A stretch of 64,000 nt of DNA, from the sequence record OZ470804.1; one strand, given 5' to 3'. The notes under the pieces were generated by a model. The model did not search any database and was not told the origin of the DNA. It saw nothing but the letters and a program-made list of their open reading frames with translations. A program made the position numbers and the translations under genes. The stretch comes from a phage. Within the stretch, counting starts at the first letter, position 1. Each line of letters starts with the position of its first letter. Below, in pieces: positions 53,373 to 64,000 of the stretch.

Positions 53373-54254
53373 ATGAAAACATCTATCCGTGTTATAATTC
53401 ATTCACCGACAAAAGGGTCTCATGAAGAAGAGTTTAACATCATCCAGTTCCCTTCTGGTGAGATTGGTGGACACTTTTCACAAGAGCTTGTTGACTTTAC
53501 TGCTCACGCAGCATCATCCATCAACAATGTGATTATGATTGTAAAAGGCTATGATAAAGACACATTGTTTGCTGTGGCACTTGCTAAAGAAGCAATTGAT
53601 GATTTAGTTCCTCATGAATATGCCTTAAAGACTGTCATCTTTTACTACTTACCAAATGCACGATATGACCGTCACATGTTTAAAGGTGATGCAGCAGCTT
53701 TGAAGGTTTTTGCTAAACAGGTTAATGCAATGGGGTTTGGTGCGGTCTGTGCAGTTGACCCTCACAGTTATGTGCCAGATAACCTGTTTAACTGCTTCCA
53801 AAGTATTCCTCAAAATGAAATTGCAGTCCACTATGCAAATGACCCACTGGTTGATTACTTAGTAGCCCCAGATGCAGGTGCTTCTAAGAAGATTGCAGAG
53901 ACTGCTAAAGAGGTGGATAAACCATACATCACAATGTCTAAAGTACGTAACCTTCAGACTGGTGAAATTACTGGTATGCGAATCCTTGATGATGTGGATT
54001 TGACAGATAAAACTGTCATGATTCTTGATGATATCTGTGATGGTGGTCGAACCTTCATAGAAGCAGCTAAACATCTTCGTGAAGCAGGTGCAAAACGTGT
54101 GGAACTCTATGTAACACATGGTATCTTCTCTAAAGGTGTTGAAAACCTTCTTGACAATGGTATTGACCACATCTACACTACAAACTCTTTAGGGGAAGCT
54201 AAAGACCGTGGTTTAACACATTATGGTCAAGTTACTGTAGCAAACCTTGATTAA
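53373..54254 (+). CDS. ribose-phosphate pyrophosphokinase-like protein (PRPP synthetase family; candidate ADPR-pyrophosphokinase Adps)
   Basis: AVDPHS, VAPDAGASKK, ILDDICDGGRT and AKRVELYVTHGIFS align with PRPP synthetase motifs; binding loop reads DGGRT rather than DTGGT. Confidence 0.85.
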   Translation: MKTSIRVIIHSPTKGSHEEEFNIIQFPSGEIGGHFSQELVDFTAHAASSINNVIMIVKGYDKDTLFAVALAKEAIDDLVPHEYALKTVIFYYLPNARYDRHMFKGDAAALKVFAKQVNAMGFGAVCAVDPHSYVPDNLFNCFQSIPQNEIAVHYANDPLVDYLVAPDAGASKKIAETAKEVDKPYITMSKVRNLQTGEITGMRILDDVDLTDKTVMILDDICDGGRTFIEAAKHLREAGAKRVELYVTHGIFSKGVENLLDNGIDHIYTTNSLGEAKDRGLTHYGQVTVANLD

Positions 54255-54264
54255 AACTTTATAG

Positions 54265-54285
54265 GGGGCTTTTAAGCCCCATTTT
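54265..54285 (+). terminator. intercistronic hairpin (weak terminator/attenuator)
   Basis: GGGGCT-TTTA-AGCCCC followed by ATTTTG between the PRPS-like and NAMPT-like genes. Confidence 0.35.
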
Positions 54286-54301
54286 GAGAGAGATTAAAAA
54301 G

Positions 54302-56083
54302 ATGACTAAATCACTTTATGCAGTGCCAGCAGGTTTAAACGCAGATGCTTACAAATCTGGTCACATTTACCAGTACCCTAGTGCAACAGAGTACTTAATG
54401 TTTAACCTGACACCACGTAGTGACAAATGGTTTAACAGTCCCTTAGCAATTGATGGTGTAGTTGCTTTTGGTATTCAACGTTTTGTTAAAGATTACTTGA
54501 TAGACCACTGGAACGCCACCTTTTTTGAACGTGACAAAAAAGAAGCAATTGATGAAATCTTAGAAGTCATGAACGGTGTTCTGGGTAAAGATGCTATTGG
54601 TCGAGAGCATTGGGAAGCACTTCATGACTTGGGTTATCTACCAGTTGAAGTATACGCTGTAGAAGAAGGAACAGTTGTCCCTATGCGTGTACCAATGGTT
54701 GTCTTCCAGAACACTGTTTCAGGTTTCCATTGGGTAGCGGGGTATCTGGAAGATGCTTTCTCTGCTGAGATTTGGAAGGCTTGTACCATTGCAACTATTG
54801 CATTGCACTACAAACGTATCTGTAAGAAGTGGGCTGACCTTACTTGTGACAACGACTTGCATTTACCTTATCAGTGCCATGACTTTGCTATGCGTGGTAT
54901 GTCCGGCTTTACTGATGACGCATTTAACGCTGTAGGCCACTTAACCAGCTTTAAAGGGACTGATAGCTTCCCTGCTGTATATACAGCTAAACGCATCTAC
55001 GGTCAGTCCTACCCAATCTCTGATATTGGTAGCTCTGTACCAGCCACTGAACACTCTGTAATGTGTGCAAACATTGCTTGGGAAGGTGGTAATGAGTTGA
55101 TTGAAGAAGAAAGACGCTTCAAAGGTGAGTTACAAACCTTCCGTCGCTTCTTAACAGAAACTTACCCAACTGGTATTGCAAGTGTTGTTTCAGATACTTA
55201 TAATTTCTGGAGAACTGTATCAGTCATATTGCCAGAACTCCGTAAAGAGATTATGGAACGAAATGGCAAACTGGTAATTCGTCCTGATTCTGGAGACCCT
55301 GTACATATTGTCACAGGTTATAAAGCAATTCACTTAGAGTGTGCTAAAAAGGCTTATTATGAACACCTAAGCAAGCTGGAAGCCAGCGACACAATGTTGA
55401 ATGCTGTTCTGAACATGAAGCTTGAAAACATCAATTATGGTATTGCTGGATGGCTACTGTTAGAAGGCTATGAGATGGTTGTTGACAGAGAAGACTTTGA
55501 AGTTGCTGATACAGTGATGTTGAAAAATGCTTATATGGTTGGTTCTGCAAACGTTGTAACACGTCCTGTAGCAGAGATTGATGGAGCTATTAAGACCCTG
55601 TATAACATCTTTGGAGGGACTATTAACTCTAAAGGTTTTAAGGTACTGGATGAGCACATTGGCCTTATTTATGGCGACTCTATCACGTTGGAACGTGCAA
55701 ATGAAATACTGAAGCGTTTGTATGAAATGGGTTTTGCAAGCTCTAACGTAGTGTTTGGTGTAGGTTCTTACACTTACCAGTACATGACTCGTGACACCTT
55801 TGCATTTGCTGTCAAAGCAACCCTTGCAAGCATTGGTGGTAAAGAGATTATGCTTGCAAAAGACCCTAAAACAGATAGTGGTGTTAAGAAGTCTGCTTTT
55901 GGTGGTGTAGCACCTATGTGGGATGGTGAAAATCTGAAAGCTGTAGATGGCTATGGGTTCCAGAGCTTTGCAGATGCACTTGAACATCCAGCTTGTGCTT
56001 TACGTCTAGTCTTTAGCGACTCTGAGCAGTTCGGCTACACAACTCTTGGTGATATTCGAAATAATATTGACAAGCAGCTTTAA
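54302..56083 (+). CDS. nicotinamide phosphoribosyltransferase-like protein (NAMPT family; candidate Namat)
   Basis: DAYKSGH, HDFAMRGMSGF...FKGTDS, VPATEHS, SVVSDTYNFW, IRPDSGDP, YGDS, FGVGSYT align with NAMPT motifs recalled from memory; ~90-aa insertion between PDSG and YGDS; start at ATG 54302 (track TTG 54284). Confidence 0.9.
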   Translation: MTKSLYAVPAGLNADAYKSGHIYQYPSATEYLMFNLTPRSDKWFNSPLAIDGVVAFGIQRFVKDYLIDHWNATFFERDKKEAIDEILEVMNGVLGKDAIGREHWEALHDLGYLPVEVYAVEEGTVVPMRVPMVVFQNTVSGFHWVAGYLEDAFSAEIWKACTIATIALHYKRICKKWADLTCDNDLHLPYQCHDFAMRGMSGFTDDAFNAVGHLTSFKGTDSFPAVYTAKRIYGQSYPISDIGSSVPATEHSVMCANIAWEGGNELIEEERRFKGELQTFRRFLTETYPTGIASVVSDTYNFWRTVSVILPELRKEIMERNGKLVIRPDSGDPVHIVTGYKAIHLECAKKAYYEHLSKLEASDTMLNAVLNMKLENINYGIAGWLLLEGYEMVVDREDFEVADTVMLKNAYMVGSANVVTRPVAEIDGAIKTLYNIFGGTINSKGFKVLDEHIGLIYGDSITLERANEILKRLYEMGFASSNVVFGVGSYTYQYMTRDTFAFAVKATLASIGGKEIMLAKDPKTDSGVKKSAFGGVAPMWDGENLKAVDGYGFQSFADALEHPACALRLVFSDSEQFGYTTLGDIRNNIDKQL

Positions 56084-56098
56084 AAGTATATGATAAGA

Positions 56099-56119
56099 GG
56101 CTCCTACGGGAGCCTTTTT
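56099..56119 (+). terminator. rho-independent terminator
   Basis: GGCTCC-TAC-GGGAGCC hairpin followed by TTTTT. Confidence 0.65.
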
Positions 56120-56136
56120 AATTTCTGGAGAAGATT

Positions 56137-56472
56137 ATGAAAATCAAAGAAATGAACATCAACATTGTCTTAGAAGAACGCTGGGAGAACATCAAGAAGC
56201 CTGAAAATGGTCATAAGTTCCTCAACAAAATCTTAGTAGCAGCTAAAGAAGAACTGACTGGCAAGGTTGCAGCAGCAATCACAATAAAGGTGTGTGTAAA
56301 GGGTCTTCCAGACAATCACCAATTTGCACTTGACGAGTTTAAAGAAAGCTTCTACAATCCAAACAAACAGATGCTTGAAAGTAACTTTGCAGTGTCTACA
56401 AGTATCGTCCATGACAGAAGCTTTATCCTTTACAAGAATATGAGAGGTGAGTCATGCAAGCATATTGGATAG
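56137..56472 (+). CDS. hypothetical protein
   Basis: 111-aa ORF. Confidence 0.35.
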   Translation: MKIKEMNINIVLEERWENIKKPENGHKFLNKILVAAKEELTGKVAAAITIKVCVKGLPDNHQFALDEFKESFYNPNKQMLESNFAVSTSIVHDRSFILYKNMRGESCKHIG

Positions 56473-60314: not shown

Positions 60315-60863
60315 ATGAAGAAATTGATTCTAGGTTTGTGCTTAATGTTTACAGCACACTTATCTTATGCAGTTGACTGCCCAGAGCTATCAATTAGCCA
60401 AAAAGTAAACATGTTAAAAGCTTACCAGTATGGTGAGAATAACATGGGTAAAGGTTGGGGTATCACTCTAGCTGCTATAGCCTTACAAGAGTCAGAGTTA
60501 GGTCTGAAGGTAGAGAATAAAAAGACCCATGACTATGGTATCTTCCAGAATCACTTGAAGACTGTTGTAAAGCGTAACAAAATTAGTCCTAATGTGGCTA
60601 AAAAGAAACTCTTAAAAGACTTTGACTATGCTGCGAAGGAAACTCACAAAGAGCTTGAGTTTTGGACAAAGGTGCATGGTCAGCCAAAGTCAAAGAAGAC
60701 TTTACAAAAAGTTTTAGCATCATATAATGCTGGGTATTCGTACAGAATCCCTAAAGCTAAGAAATATTCTCAAGATGTCTATAACAACATGAAAGTTATT
60801 GCTCAATGTGAATTTGCAACAAACATTTCTAAGGTAAACCATGAAAAAATTAAAAAAGTCTGA
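60315..60863 (+). CDS. lytic transglycosylase (SLT domain) with signal peptide; candidate endolysin
   Basis: Signal peptide MKKLILGLCLMFTAHLSYA; SLT motifs AIALQES, GIFQ and YNAG; TATAAT hexamer 25-30 nt upstream. Confidence 0.6.
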   Translation: MKKLILGLCLMFTAHLSYAVDCPELSISQKVNMLKAYQYGENNMGKGWGITLAAIALQESELGLKVENKKTHDYGIFQNHLKTVVKRNKISPNVAKKKLLKDFDYAAKETHKELEFWTKVHGQPKSKKTLQKVLASYNAGYSYRIPKAKKYSQDVYNNMKVIAQCEFATNISKVNHEKIKKV

Positions 60864-61536
60864 TGAAGTACTGTGTCATGCTTACGACTTACATCCTCAT
60901 GAGTTAGGTCTTGATTCCTGTGTATGGACTCCAGAACAGTGTAGGGATTTTGAAGACACTGCAAGAGAAGTTGTATGTTCACTCGAAGAGTTCCACACAT
61001 CAGAACCAATTGTGAATGTTGTAGATAAAGAGACTGGACAAACTATAGGTGTAAGTCGTGATAGCTTAGTCATAGTCAATAAAGACCTTGTAGAAAAAGG
61101 GAATCTCATCTTAGCAGATATTGATGGTGTTCTTACAAATTTTAATCACGAAGATTGTTCAACGGAATTGACTGACGGTTCATTCTCGCAGTACACTAAT
61201 CTTCTTGACTCTGTAAGAGCAAAACCAACGTATGTTTTCAATATCATTGATGCAATTGCTAATCATGCTGCTGTTGGACTCTTGACAGCGAGAGGTGAAT
61301 CTCAGAGAATACCTACTGAGATGTTTTTAAGGCATAACACAGAGCATGACTACATGCTTTTTATGCGTGGTTTTGGGACTAACTCTATAAGCGCAGAAAG
61401 TTTGAAAGTGAGGATGATTCAGTCTTGCATTCTGCCTTACTTTAATATAGTATGTTTTATAGAAGACACAGAGAAGAATGTGCAGAAGGTGAACAGAATC
61501 CTTCCACACATTAAAACCATGTTAGTTAAACATTGA
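60841..61536 (+). CDS. HAD-like hydrolase (candidate nucleotidase/phosphatase)
   Basis: LADIDGVLT resembles HAD motif I (DxDGT/V). Confidence 0.3.
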   Translation: MKKLKKSDEVLCHAYDLHPHELGLDSCVWTPEQCRDFEDTAREVVCSLEEFHTSEPIVNVVDKETGQTIGVSRDSLVIVNKDLVEKGNLILADIDGVLTNFNHEDCSTELTDGSFSQYTNLLDSVRAKPTYVFNIIDAIANHAAVGLLTARGESQRIPTEMFLRHNTEHDYMLFMRGFGTNSISAESLKVRMIQSCILPYFNIVCFIEDTEKNVQKVNRILPHIKTMLVKH

Positions 61537-63383: not shown

Positions 63384-63584
63384 ATGGCTGACTTCTGCAA
63401 AGACTGTTCTATCGAAATGTTTGGACGTGATACAGGTGACTTAAAAGGTCTTATCACTGAAGATGACTTTAAAGCTGGCTATGCAATGCCAGTAATCTGT
63501 GAAGGCTGTGGGTGCATCTGGGTAGACCATGAAGGGCAACGTGTAAAACCTTCAGAAGATAAAGAATCTTGGGAGAGATGTTAA
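63384..63584 (+). CDS. zinc-ribbon protein
   Basis: 66 aa with CKDC ... CEGCGC. Confidence 0.35.
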   Translation: MADFCKDCSIEMFGRDTGDLKGLITEDDFKAGYAMPVICEGCGCIWVDHEGQRVKPSEDKESWERC

Positions 63585-64000
63585 ATGGGTATTGTAAAAA
63601 TCATCAAAGGCGATATCTTTGACGCCTTTGATAAAGGTAAGTTTGATATCATTGGGCATGGTTGCAACTGTATGAATTTCATGGGTGCAGGTATTGCAGC
63701 AACTATTTCTAAGCGTTATCCAAAAGTGTATGATACTGACACAGAAGTTTACCTGTTTGCAGGTGGCATCCGTCACAAACCCTGTGAGAATTTACTAGGT
63801 AATTTCTCTGTAGCACGCTTAAAACAAGGTCGTATAGCTAACCTTTACACCCAACTTCATACTGGTAAAGATGCCCGATACAGTGCTTTAGAGTCATCTT
63901 TGAAACAACTTAACAGATACTGTGAAGTTAACCAGTTGAAGAAAGTCGGTCTGCCTATGATTGGTGCAGGTATCGGTGGACTTGACCCTCAAGCTGTCAC
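63585..64000 (+). CDS. macro domain protein (ADP-ribose binding/processing; 3' end outside window)
   Basis: ATG at 63585 overlapping upstream stop; frame open to window end (absent from track); IIKGDIFDA...DIIGHGCNCMNFMGAGIAATI and VGLPMIGAGIGGL match macro-domain motifs. Confidence 0.75.
   Translation, partial: MGIVKIIKGDIFDAFDKGKFDIIGHGCNCMNFMGAGIAATISKRYPKVYDTDTEVYLFAGGIRHKPCENLLGNFSVARLKQGRIANLYTQLHTGKDARYSALESSLKQLNRYCEVNQLKKVGLPMIGAGIGGLDPQAV

What the first reader, a model, noticed from the sequence alone, without database searches (positions are those of the whole stretch)
63585..64000. Unannotated macro-domain gene at the window edge
An ORF starting at 63585 and running off the window encodes a clear macro domain (GDIFDA...GHGCNCMNFMGAGIAATI, GLPMIGAGIGG). 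It is missing from the ORF track because it has no in-window stop. Macro domains bind or hydrolyse ADP-ribose derivatives. In a phage that also carries a candidate ADPR-dependent NAD+ module 7.5 kb upstream, it could supply or process ADPR, reverse ADP-ribosylation (for example DarT-type DNA ADP-ribosylation), or degrade ADPR-derived immune signals.
Basis: partly seen in the sequence, partly recalled or inferred. Interest (0 to 1): 0.6.

Follow-up and report, generated by a model that had tools for sequence, protein, structure and literature searches.

The report
Felix-type phage macro-domain ADP-ribose hydrolase
The window ends inside a real, widely conserved phage gene for a macro-domain enzyme that most likely trims modified ADP-ribose back to plain ADP-ribose, which would feed the phage's nearby NAD+-rebuilding pathway; the gene and its family are already known, but this two-domain version has never been tested.

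Summary
The ORF is real: ATG at 63585, open to the window end, 138 codons of a 261-aa protein. The window is a Felix O1-like phage. The ortholog in Bas63 (bas63_0095, "putative phosphatase") is 92% identical. Pfam, two confident models and fold searches confirm a macro domain of the TARG1/DarG/Poa1p class. It belongs to the phage family phrog_335, which contains Adpp. Adpp is a 2026-described ADPR-1''-phosphate phosphatase that lets the NAD+ pathway NARP1 beat RES-type NAD+ depletion. A profile built from NARP1-adjacent Adpp proteins scores the Felix protein at 111 bits, against 37 bits for a DarG/AdfM profile. Adpp's essential His is conserved. The "NAD+ module" 7.5 kb upstream is NARP1, first found in Bas63. 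Best reading (about 0.45): an Adpp-like enzyme encoded away from NARP1, so missed by the published ±2-gene scan. Caveats: it sits in a sub-clade with T-even Tk.4 from NARP1-less phages, lacks Adpp's loop insertion, and shares its His/Asn/Gln signature with SCO6735, a DNA de-ADP-ribosylase. Anti-DarT activity therefore stays open (about 0.25). Residues 158-261 form a confident β-rich domain with no relatives elsewhere. Bas63 knockouts show the gene is dispensable, including under Sir2-HerA. Interest is moderate.

The parts
63585..64000 (+). The first 138 codons of a 261-codon gene for a two-domain macro protein, the ortholog of bas63_0095. The window holds macro-domain residues 1-138. The last strand and helix of the macro domain and the whole C-terminal domain lie beyond the window.
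   Evidence: The fragment is 92.0% identical to bas63_0095.
63571..63577 (+). A Shine-Dalgarno-like GGGAGAG run, 7 nt upstream of the ATG.
   Evidence: Read directly from the sequence. Its function is inferred.
63657..63668 (+). Codons for His25-Gly26-Cys27-Asn28, the H-x-x-N motif. His25 aligns with Adpp His24 (H24A is inactive) and with Poa1p His23. Asn28 aligns with AdfM Asn23 and, by residue spacing, with SCO6735 Asn27.
   Evidence: Both residues are invariant in 38 homologs.
63840..63854 (+). Codons for Asn86-Leu-Tyr-Thr-Gln90 (NLYTQ). Gln90 occupies the position of the catalytic Lys of TARG1 (K84) and DarG (K80), and of Gln85 in SCO6735.
63963..63980 (+). Codons for Gly127-Ala-Gly-Ile-Gly-Gly132, the glycine-rich loop (IGAGIGG) that binds the diphosphate in macro domains. 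Gly131 sits where TARG1 has Asp125.
   Evidence: The role in diphosphate binding comes from established knowledge of macro domains.
63384..63584 (+). A 66-aa Cys-rich ORF (CxxC...CxxCxC, phrog_2210) whose stop codon abuts the macro start codon. It is probably co-translated with the macro gene. Its function is unknown.
   Evidence: The same pairing is conserved in relatives.
53373..54254 (+). Adps, the ADP-ribose pyrophosphokinase that is the first enzyme of NARP1. It is the ortholog of bas63_0079.
   Evidence: Pribosyltran and Pribosyl_synth domains. It is 77.5% identical to bas63_0079. The NARP1 function was shown in Bas63.
54302..56083 (+). Namat, the nicotinamide ADP-ribose transferase that is the second enzyme of NARP1. 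It is the ortholog of bas63_0080. The listed ORF begins at a TTG at 54284, but the ATG at 54302 matches the Bas63 start.
   Evidence: NAPRTase and NAMPT_N domains. It is 97.5% identical to bas63_0080. Function shown.

Best explanation
The gene encodes a two-domain enzyme. Its N-terminal macro domain binds the ADP-ribose moiety and hydrolyses a substituent on the 1'' carbon of the distal ribose, releasing free ADP-ribose. The most likely physiological substrate is ADP-ribose-1''-phosphate. That compound is made when RES-domain defence proteins (aRES and RES toxins) destroy NAD+ by phosphorolysis. NARP1 cannot use ADPR-1''-phosphate. By removing the phosphate, the macro enzyme would hand plain ADPR to the phage's own Adps and Namat, 7.5 kb upstream on the same strand, and these rebuild NAD+. 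This would be the published NARP1-AP pathway with the phosphatase encoded outside the operon. Shown: homology to Adpp, conservation of the residues, presence of NARP1 in the same genome, and dispensability of the gene in the laboratory. Inferred: the substrate, the coupling to NARP1, and any role of the C-terminal β-rich domain, which might add a binding surface or stabilise the enzyme.
Against: The gene is 15 genes (7.5 kb) from NARP1, not in the operon. It lies in an HGCNC/NLYTQ sub-clade (66% bootstrap) with T-even Tk.4, from phages I believe have no NARP1 (my knowledge of T4-like genomes; not checked here). Validated Adpp and most NARP1-adjacent proteins are basal to that sub-clade and carry a 3-8 residue insertion after the Gln that Felix lacks. 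Of 56 distant homolog loci, only 5 have NARP1 within 10 kb. One Felix-like contig (L018) has lost exactly Adps and Namat yet keeps the macro gene. The His/Asn/Gln signature is also that of SCO6735, a DNA de-ADP-ribosylase, so the residues do not identify the substrate. Adpp has no C-terminal domain. No biochemical or aRES infection data exist for any Felix-type protein.
Confidence: 0.45

Rival explanations
1. It is an orphan antitoxin-like ADP-ribosyl glycohydrolase. The macro domain would remove ADP-ribose from phage DNA modified by DarT2-type toxins on thymidine, or from RNA or protein modified by another host ADP-ribosyltransferase. It would use a water-mediated, Gln-dependent mechanism like SCO6735. 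The C-terminal domain might bind nucleic acid or the toxin, as the second domain of DarG2 does.
Confidence: 0.25
2. It acts on another small ADP-ribose derivative. It might hydrolyse or sequester ADPR-based immune signals such as the Thoeris cyclic ADPR isomers, deacetylate O-acetyl-ADP-ribose, or salvage ADPR-cyclic-phosphate or ADPR-1''-phosphate that forms when the NARP1 intermediate ADPR-PP decays.
Against: There is no specific sequence or context evidence for any of these. MacroD-type profiles barely match (NCBIfam PRK00431 E=0.11). The gene-95 knockout is not sensitised under Sir2-HerA, where NARP1 is active and ADPR-PP is made. That argues against an essential salvage role. Known Thoeris-signal enzymes and sponges belong to other folds (for RyDEP; the rest from my knowledge).
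Confidence: 0.12
3. It is an RNA-repair accessory. Working with the polynucleotide kinase/phosphatase 2 kb upstream, it would dispose of ADPR-1''-phosphate or the 1''-2'' cyclic phosphate produced when a 2'-phosphotransferase removes 2'-phosphates from repaired RNA. This is the role Poa1p plays in yeast tRNA splicing.
For: A PNK gene lies at 60841..61536 on the same strand. The protein resembles Poa1p in fold and in its N-terminal motif. The phage carries many tRNA genes.
Against: No RNA ligase or 2'-phosphotransferase is annotated in the parts of Felix-like genomes examined. Proximity to PNK is weak evidence in a densely packed early region. Poa1p's pathway role comes from my knowledge of yeast biology, and no phage parallel is known.
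Confidence: 0.05

Closest known systems
Adpp, the ADPR-1''-phosphate phosphatase of the NARP1-AP pathway (Vibrio phage Gary KNV71_gp137; Osterman et al., bioRxiv 10.64898/2026.01.28.702374)
   Same: Both belong to the same PHROG (phrog_335). They align end to end at 28% identity. Both have the H-x-x-N, N-x-Y-x-Q and IG(A/C)G(L/I)(A/G)GG motifs, including the His that is essential in Adpp. Both are phage-encoded, and both genomes carry NARP1.
   Different: Adpp is a single domain of about 157 aa encoded between or next to Adps and Namat. The Felix protein is 261 aa with an extra C-terminal domain and lies 15 genes away. It lacks the 3-8 residue insertion after the Gln and falls in a different sub-clade. 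Its activity is untested.
T-even phage Tk.4 ('A1pp phosphatase motif' protein; T6 AXN58154.1)
   Same: It is the closest sub-clade. Both have the HGCNC and NLYTQ motifs, the short loop, and similar scores on the Adpp profile (101 against 111 bits). Acinetobacter phage 133 Tk.4 also has a C-terminal extension.
   Different: Most Tk.4 proteins are single-domain, about 155 aa. To my knowledge their phages have no NARP1. The function of Tk.4 is unknown.
Yeast Poa1p (PDB 6LFQ), an ADP-ribose-1''-phosphate phosphatase
   Different: Poa1p has Ser, not Gln, at the key loop position (LFTS against LYTQ), and it has long insertions. Sequence similarity outside the N-terminus is weak (E=0.019 for residues 5-55 only).
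AdfM (PhiKZ gp104) and the DarG2 macro domain, DNA ADP-ribosyl glycohydrolases that counter or neutralise DarT2
   Same: They share the macro-domain class, the conserved Asn, and the glycine loop GxGxGGL. AdfM is likewise an orphan phage gene.
   Different: AdfM and DarG have Lys in FPTK, where Felix has Gln. AdfM scores 133 bits on the DarG profile, against 47-53 bits for Felix. They fall in separate clades.
SCO6735 (Streptomyces coelicolor; PDB 5E3B), an ALC1-like macro hydrolase of dT-ADPr DNA and ADP-ribosylated protein
   Same: It has Gln at the position of the TARG1/DarG Lys, and the same His-x-x-Asn and Gly-x-Gly spacing.
   Different: It is a bacterial single-domain protein. Sequence similarity to Felix is marginal (E=0.47). 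By spacing, the DNA-positioning Lys34 is Ala here. I could not obtain a residue-level alignment.
Human TARG1/OARD1 (PDB 4J5R/4J5S)
   Same: It is the best sequence and Foldseek match among solved structures (E=3e-06 and 1e-11).
   Different: Both residues of the catalytic dyad, Lys84 and Asp125, are replaced, by Gln90 and Gly131.

Membership tests
Macro domain superfamily (Pfam PF01661) | The profile match exceeds the curated gathering score. | tested here: met
   30.3 bits for the window fragment and 29.4 bits for the full length, against a cut-off of 22.
Macro domain superfamily (Pfam PF01661) | A three-layer α/β/α macro fold. | tested here: met
Macro domain superfamily (Pfam PF01661) | Binding of ADP-ribose. 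| not testable with these tools
   The glycine-rich loops MGAGIA and IGAGIGG are present, but no ligand modelling or assay was possible.
Adpp / phage Poa1p-like phosphatase family (phrog_335; NARP1-AP) | Sequence homology to validated Adpp and to NARP1-adjacent macro proteins. | tested here: met
   phrog_335 E=1.3e-65 (Gary Adpp 1.3e-49). BLASTP E=1e-14 and 6e-19. Adpp-only profile 110.9 bits. Common clade with 84% bootstrap.
Adpp / phage Poa1p-like phosphatase family (phrog_335; NARP1-AP) | Conservation of the essential His (Adpp His24). | tested here: met
   It aligns with Felix His25, which is invariant in 38 homologs.
Adpp / phage Poa1p-like phosphatase family (phrog_335; NARP1-AP) | The gene lies within two genes of Adps and Namat, the criterion used in the paper. 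| tested here: not met
   It lies 7.5 kb, or 15 genes, downstream of Namat.
Adpp / phage Poa1p-like phosphatase family (phrog_335; NARP1-AP) | NARP1 (Adps plus Namat) is present in the same genome. | tested here: met
   Window 53373..56083 is orthologous to Bas63 genes 79-80.
Adpp / phage Poa1p-like phosphatase family (phrog_335; NARP1-AP) | The extended loop after the conserved Gln that is seen in Gary Adpp and most NARP1-adjacent proteins. | tested here: not met
   Felix has QLHTGKD, whereas Gary has QYHWHAHKVAPGRN. Whether this loop matters for activity is unknown.
Adpp / phage Poa1p-like phosphatase family (phrog_335; NARP1-AP) | ADPR-1''-phosphate phosphatase activity and rescue from aRES defence. 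| not testable with these tools
   This needs biochemistry and infection assays.
DarG2 antitoxin / AdfM | The NCBIfam equivalog score reaches the curated cut-off. | tested here: not met
   53.9 bits against a cut-off of 250, with only the macro part matched.
DarG2 antitoxin / AdfM | The catalytic Lys (DarG K80, AdfM K78) in the FPTK motif. | tested here: not met
   Gln90 in LYTQ, invariant across the family.
DarG2 antitoxin / AdfM | The conserved active-site Asn (DarG N22, AdfM N23). | tested here: met
   Asn28 aligns and is invariant.
DarG2 antitoxin / AdfM | A C-terminal domain that binds DarT. | tested here: not met
TARG1-type glycohydrolase | The Lys84/Asp125 catalytic dyad. | tested here: not met
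   Gln90 and Gly131 occupy the aligned positions.
SCO6735-type (Gln-dependent) ALC1-like hydrolase | Gln at the Lys position, with the His-x-x-Asn and Gly-x-Gly motifs. | tested here: inconclusive
   The residue spacing matches the published numbering (His24, Asn27, Gln85, Gly126, Gly128). No direct alignment was obtained, and sequence similarity is marginal (E=0.47).
MacroD-type O-acetyl-ADP-ribose deacetylase (an annotation found in some records) | A profile match to MacroD/YmdB-type models. | tested here: not met
   NCBIfam PRK00431 gives E=0.11 at 12.4 bits against a cut-off of 246. MacroD structures rank below the TARG1/DarG/Poa1p class.

The most novel reading that the evidence does not exclude
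The Felix-type protein is a dual-action counter-defence factor. The macro domain hydrolyses whatever a host NAD+-consuming effector attaches to or leaves on ADP-ribose (a 1''-phosphate from aRES, or thymidine-linked ADPr from DarT2). The family-specific C-terminal β-domain binds and blocks the effector itself, in the way the second domain of DarG2 does, or docks the enzyme onto Adps/Namat so that ADPR passes straight into NAD+ resynthesis. On this reading, 'split' NARP1-AP systems would be widespread, and the published figure of 15% of NARP1 phages carrying the phosphatase would be a large underestimate.
Probability: 0.1. Interest if true: 0.7.

Novelty: new variant of a known kind. Interest (0 to 1): 0.4.

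Why it matters
Bas63, a close relative of this window's phage, is the phage in which the NAD+-rebuilding pathway NARP1 was discovered. The recent finding that RES-type defences defeat NARP1 unless the phage adds a macro-domain phosphatase came from operon-adjacent genes only. If the Felix-type gene does the same job from 7.5 kb away, then the archetypal NARP1 phage already carries the extended pathway. Genome scans based on adjacency would then under-count it, and Felix-like therapeutic phages of E. coli and Salmonella would be predicted to resist aRES. The test is cheap, because knockout libraries of Bas63 and aRES strains both exist. If the protein instead removes ADP-ribose from DNA, it would point to a function for the very common Tk.4 family of T-even phages. 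Either way, the C-terminal domain is a confident new fold unit of unknown role.

Tried and rejected
1. DarG membership. The first profile hits pointed to DarG, but calibration showed that validated Adpp scores the same and true AdfM scores far higher.

2. Using the Lys-to-Gln change to exclude anti-DarT activity. I held this view until I read that SCO6735 uses Gln at that position and cleaves dT-ADPr DNA. I withdrew the argument.

4. The MacroD/O-acetyl-ADPR deacetylase annotation. No profile supports it.

5. Finding relatives of the C-terminal domain.
- Pfam found nothing for the domain alone or for the 13 members of its alignment.
- A PDB profile search gave only a BamB hit at E=0.049.
- A word-indexed homology search found nothing.
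- A full HMMER scan of 1.84 billion representatives found only the same phage proteins, plus spurious multi-stretch hits to LapA/Ig adhesins and NHL or PQQ propellers.

I used P0001 and P0045 instead.

7. The afdb50 fold library was unavailable.

8. A residue-level alignment to SCO6735 could not be obtained, because it never ranked among the printed alignments.

9. A search for a phenotype in the Bas63 knockout screen showed that the gene is dispensable in every condition I read. The main text never mentions DarTG, and aRES was described only later, so I take it that neither was in that panel.

10. A search for a Tk.4 paper failed on a term-length rule, and I did not repeat it.

Full report
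**Observation.** An ATG at 63585 follows directly after the TAA stop of the upstream 66-codon ORF (63384..63584). A GGGAGAG run lies 7 nt before the ATG. The ORF is missing from the ORF list only because ORFs that run off the window are not listed. It matches Pfam Macro above the curated threshold (30.3 bits against 22). It also matches the phage family phrog_335, annotated "phosphatase", at E=1.3e-65.

**Which phage, and the whole gene.** The last 3 kb of the window are 90-99% identical to more than 200 Felix O1-like phages (genus Felixounavirus). The best match is LF110P4 at 97.5%. In these relatives the gene is 786 nt (261 aa). It is already annotated as "putative phosphatase", "O-acetyl-ADP-ribose deacetylase" or "Poa1p-like macro domain". 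The window therefore holds only the first 53% of the protein. A strong intrinsic-terminator-like hairpin (17 pairs followed by a T run) sits just after the gene in LF110P4. The macro gene is thus probably the last gene of a rightward block of closely spaced or overlapping same-strand genes. That block also holds rIIA/rIIB, a lysin-like gene, a polynucleotide kinase, the spanins and several small ORFs.

**Fold and class.** Two AlphaFold2 models were made. The macro domain alone has mean pLDDT 86. A full-length relative, P0045, has pLDDT 93.4 and pTM 0.90. P0045 is the representative of a 1,060-member cluster and about 90% identical to the window fragment by my count from the sequences.
- Foldseek against solved structures gives near-equal top hits: TARG1 (1e-11), Poa1p (2e-11, best query TM-score 0.72-0.73) and DarG (3e-11).
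- Sequence searches agree: TARG1 3e-06, DarG 1.6e-04, and Poa1p for the N-terminus only.

The protein therefore belongs to the TARG1/DarG/Poa1p (ALC1-like) class, not the MacroD class (NCBIfam PRK00431 E=0.11). The fold fixes the class but not the chemistry.

**Active-site residues.** Across 38 homologs down to about 27% identity, the invariant positions include His25, Gly26, Asn28, Asn86, Tyr88, Thr89, Gln90, Pro124, Gly127, Gly129 and Gly132. Gln90 sits where TARG1 has its catalytic Lys84 and DarG has Lys80. Gly131 sits where TARG1 has Asp125. Asn28 matches the conserved Asn of DarG and AdfM.

**What the literature now says.** Three recent lines of work bear on this.
- *Adpp.* Osterman et al. 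(bioRxiv 10.64898/2026.01.28.702374) showed that RES-domain defence proteins (aRES) split NAD+ into nicotinamide and ADPR-1''-phosphate, which NARP1 cannot use. Some phages add a Poa1p-like macro protein, Adpp, inside the NARP1 operon. Purified Adpp from Vibrio phage Gary converts ADPR-1''-phosphate to ADPR. [quoted passage not shown] Their scan looked only two genes either side of NARP1, and its table contains no Escherichia, Salmonella or Felix-like phage.
- *AdfM.* PhiKZ gp104 is a phage DarG2-like macro protein that strips DarT2-made ADP-ribose from DNA. Its active-site residues are Asn23 and Lys78.
- *SCO6735.* This Streptomyces macro protein has Gln85 at the Lys position, plus His24 and Asn27. 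It still cleaves thymidine-linked ADPr DNA and protects against DarT, and its Q85A mutant is dead.

**Membership tests.**
- The Felix protein aligns end to end with Gary Adpp (28% identity, E=1e-14; Adpp His24 corresponds to Felix His25). It also aligns with a NARP1-adjacent Acinetobacter phage protein that has the same HGCNC and YTQ motifs (31%, E=6e-19).
- Both Felix and Gary Adpp fall in phrog_335.
- A profile built only from 11 NARP1-adjacent proteins gives the Felix macro domain 110.9 bits and the window fragment 96.9 bits. It gives DarG, TARG1, AdfM and Poa1p 45-65 bits. A DarG/AdfM profile gives Felix 37 bits, against 244-262 bits for its own members.
- In a neighbour-joining tree, Felix, Tk.4 and Adpp form one clade apart from TARG1/DarG/AdfM with 84% bootstrap.
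- The PADLOC DarG profile scores AdfM at 132.9 bits. It scores Felix at 47-53 bits, Gary Adpp at 44.6 and other NARP1-adjacent proteins at 46-52. The DarG hit is therefore a class resemblance shared with validated Adpp.

**Counter-evidence.**
- Within the phage clade, Felix groups with metagenomic proteins and T-even Tk.4 ("A1pp phosphatase motif") in an HGCNC/NLYTQ sub-clade with 66% bootstrap. NARP1-adjacent proteins are basal to it.
- Gary Adpp, most NARP1-adjacent proteins and Poa1p have a 3-8 residue insertion after the Gln or Ser. Felix and Tk.4 lack it.
- The macro family occurs in 2,877 phage records, whereas Prs/Adps-like genes occur in 1,413, with different host distributions.
- Among 56 distant homolog loci from viral contigs, only 5 have NARP1-like genes within 10 kb. 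One of these (L082) has the Adps-macro-Namat order.
- The His/Asn/Gln signature is common to Adpp and SCO6735, so it cannot decide the substrate.

**Genomic context.** The upstream module consists of a Prs-like gene (53373..54254) and a Nampt-like gene (54302..56083), with the same Pfam domains as reported for Bas63 genes 79-80. Bas63 is a Felixounavirus and is the phage in which NARP1 was discovered and deleted. In Bas63 the macro ortholog is bas63_0095, "putative phosphatase", 15 genes after Namat on the same strand. Identities to the window are 92.0% for the macro fragment, 97.5% for Namat and 77.5% for Adps. In Felix-like viral contigs the Namat start lies 9.3-9.6 kb before the macro start wherever the flank reaches that far. 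There is one exception. Contig L018 lacks exactly window positions 53380-56127, which is Adps plus Namat, with flanks matching at 85-98%. It still keeps the macro gene.

**Experimental data on the ortholog.** The PhageMaP screen made barcoded knockouts of Bas63 genes (bioRxiv 10.1101/2024.10.10.617714). Scores below 0 mean essential. Gene 95 scores about +1.0 in the TerY-P strain. Under the NAD+-depleting Sir2-HerA system it scores +0.84, +0.58 and +0.42. In the same condition g79 scores -2.06, -2.65 and -3.00, and g80 scores -3.00, -3.09 and -3.32. The macro gene is therefore dispensable in the laboratory, and it is not needed for NARP1 to work when the NADase releases plain ADPR. This fits an accessory enzyme needed only for modified ADPR. 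It argues against an essential role in salvaging decay products of ADPR-PP. The main text never mentions DarTG, and aRES was described only later, so I take it that neither system was in that panel.

**The C-terminal domain.** Residues of about 158-261 are predicted with high confidence as a compact β-rich domain. Its strands are 179-184, 187-194, 197-201, 213-215, 226-229 and 235-239, with a helix at 242-249. The high pTM implies that it is packed against the macro domain.
- In 20 two-domain proteins, only Pro174 and Gly179 are invariant in this part. Non-synonymous changes there are about as frequent as synonymous ones, 9-10 against 8-12. This pattern suits a binding or structural module better than a second enzyme.
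- The two-domain form covers at least 80% of the query in 258 phage records, all Ounavirinae in the rows shown. More divergent two-domain relatives exist in Erwinia phage MM7, Acinetobacter phage 133 (Tk.4) and Vibrio phages.

**Mechanism I commit to.** The macro domain binds ADP-ribose. Using the His25/Asn28/Gln90 constellation, it hydrolyses a group attached to the 1'' carbon, releasing free ADPR. The most likely natural substrate is ADPR-1''-phosphate made by RES-type NAD+ phosphorylases, so the product feeds the phage's own NARP1 (confidence about 0.45). The main rival is removal of ADP-ribose from DNA, RNA or protein in an AdfM- or SCO6735-like manner (about 0.25). Smaller rivals are other small ADPR derivatives or immune signals (about 0.12) and an RNA-repair by-product role (about 0.05). 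All the hydrolytic alternatives also yield ADPR, which is the NARP1 substrate.

**Novelty and limits.** The gene, its family and the Adpp pathway are all known. Three things are new:
- The archetypal NARP1 lineage carries an Adpp-family gene outside the operon.
- That gene is a two-domain, short-loop variant shared with a sub-clade found largely in phages that lack NARP1.
- Its C-domain has no known relatives.

No activity has been measured for any member of this sub-clade. I could not inspect model coordinates, model ligands, or obtain a direct alignment to SCO6735.

Noticed in passing
L018 (IMGVR_UViG_3300045988_004931) positions 2544-2559, against window 53380-56127: A Felix-like viral contig lacks exactly the Adps and Namat genes (NARP1). 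The flanks match the window at 85-98%, and the macro gene downstream is retained. This is a natural NARP1-less relative.
   Followed up: partly
L002:7436-7664, just beyond the window end in the closest relative: After the terminator that follows the macro gene there are four copies of a 28-34 nt repeat ending in TGTGCAG, spaced 39-73 nt apart. Then come about 4.5 tandem copies of the 10-nt unit GTGGGGGTAG. These could be promoter or regulator sites, or origin-like iterons. Their role is unexplained.
   Followed up: partly
window 63384-63584 (+): A 66-aa Cys-rich ORF (CxxC...CxxCxC, phrog_2210, unknown function) has a stop codon that abuts the macro gene's ATG. The pairing is conserved in relatives, so the two may be translationally coupled.
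   Followed up: no
window 53373-56083 (+): The two NARP1 genes have different histories. Namat is 97.5% identical to the Bas63 copy, but Adps is only 77.5% identical, although an identical Adps exists in phage EF202P1. This suggests allele exchange within the operon.
   Followed up: no
window 56083-56137, against L009:2211-2555 and Bas63 55508-55852: Bas63 and contig L009 carry an extra gene of about 345 nt (bas63_0081) immediately after Namat that is absent from the window. This is a variable slot next to NARP1.
   Followed up: no
window 60841-61536 (+): A polynucleotide kinase gene (phrog_3970, E=1e-134) has no Pfam match at E<=0.01. No RNA ligase partner is annotated in the parts of relatives I examined.
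   Followed up: no
L003:4063-4947 (Escherichia phage ESCO56): An adenine-specific methyltransferase gene is inserted between the PNK-adjacent ORF and the spanins, relative to the window. Three further genes sit between rIIB and the lysin-like gene. This shows that the region accepts cargo insertions.
   Followed up: no
L006:1498-1965 (phage T6): The T-even homolog of this macro gene is tk.4, which lies between vs and tk. It is present in very many T4-like phages and is still uncharacterised as far as I could find.
   Followed up: partly
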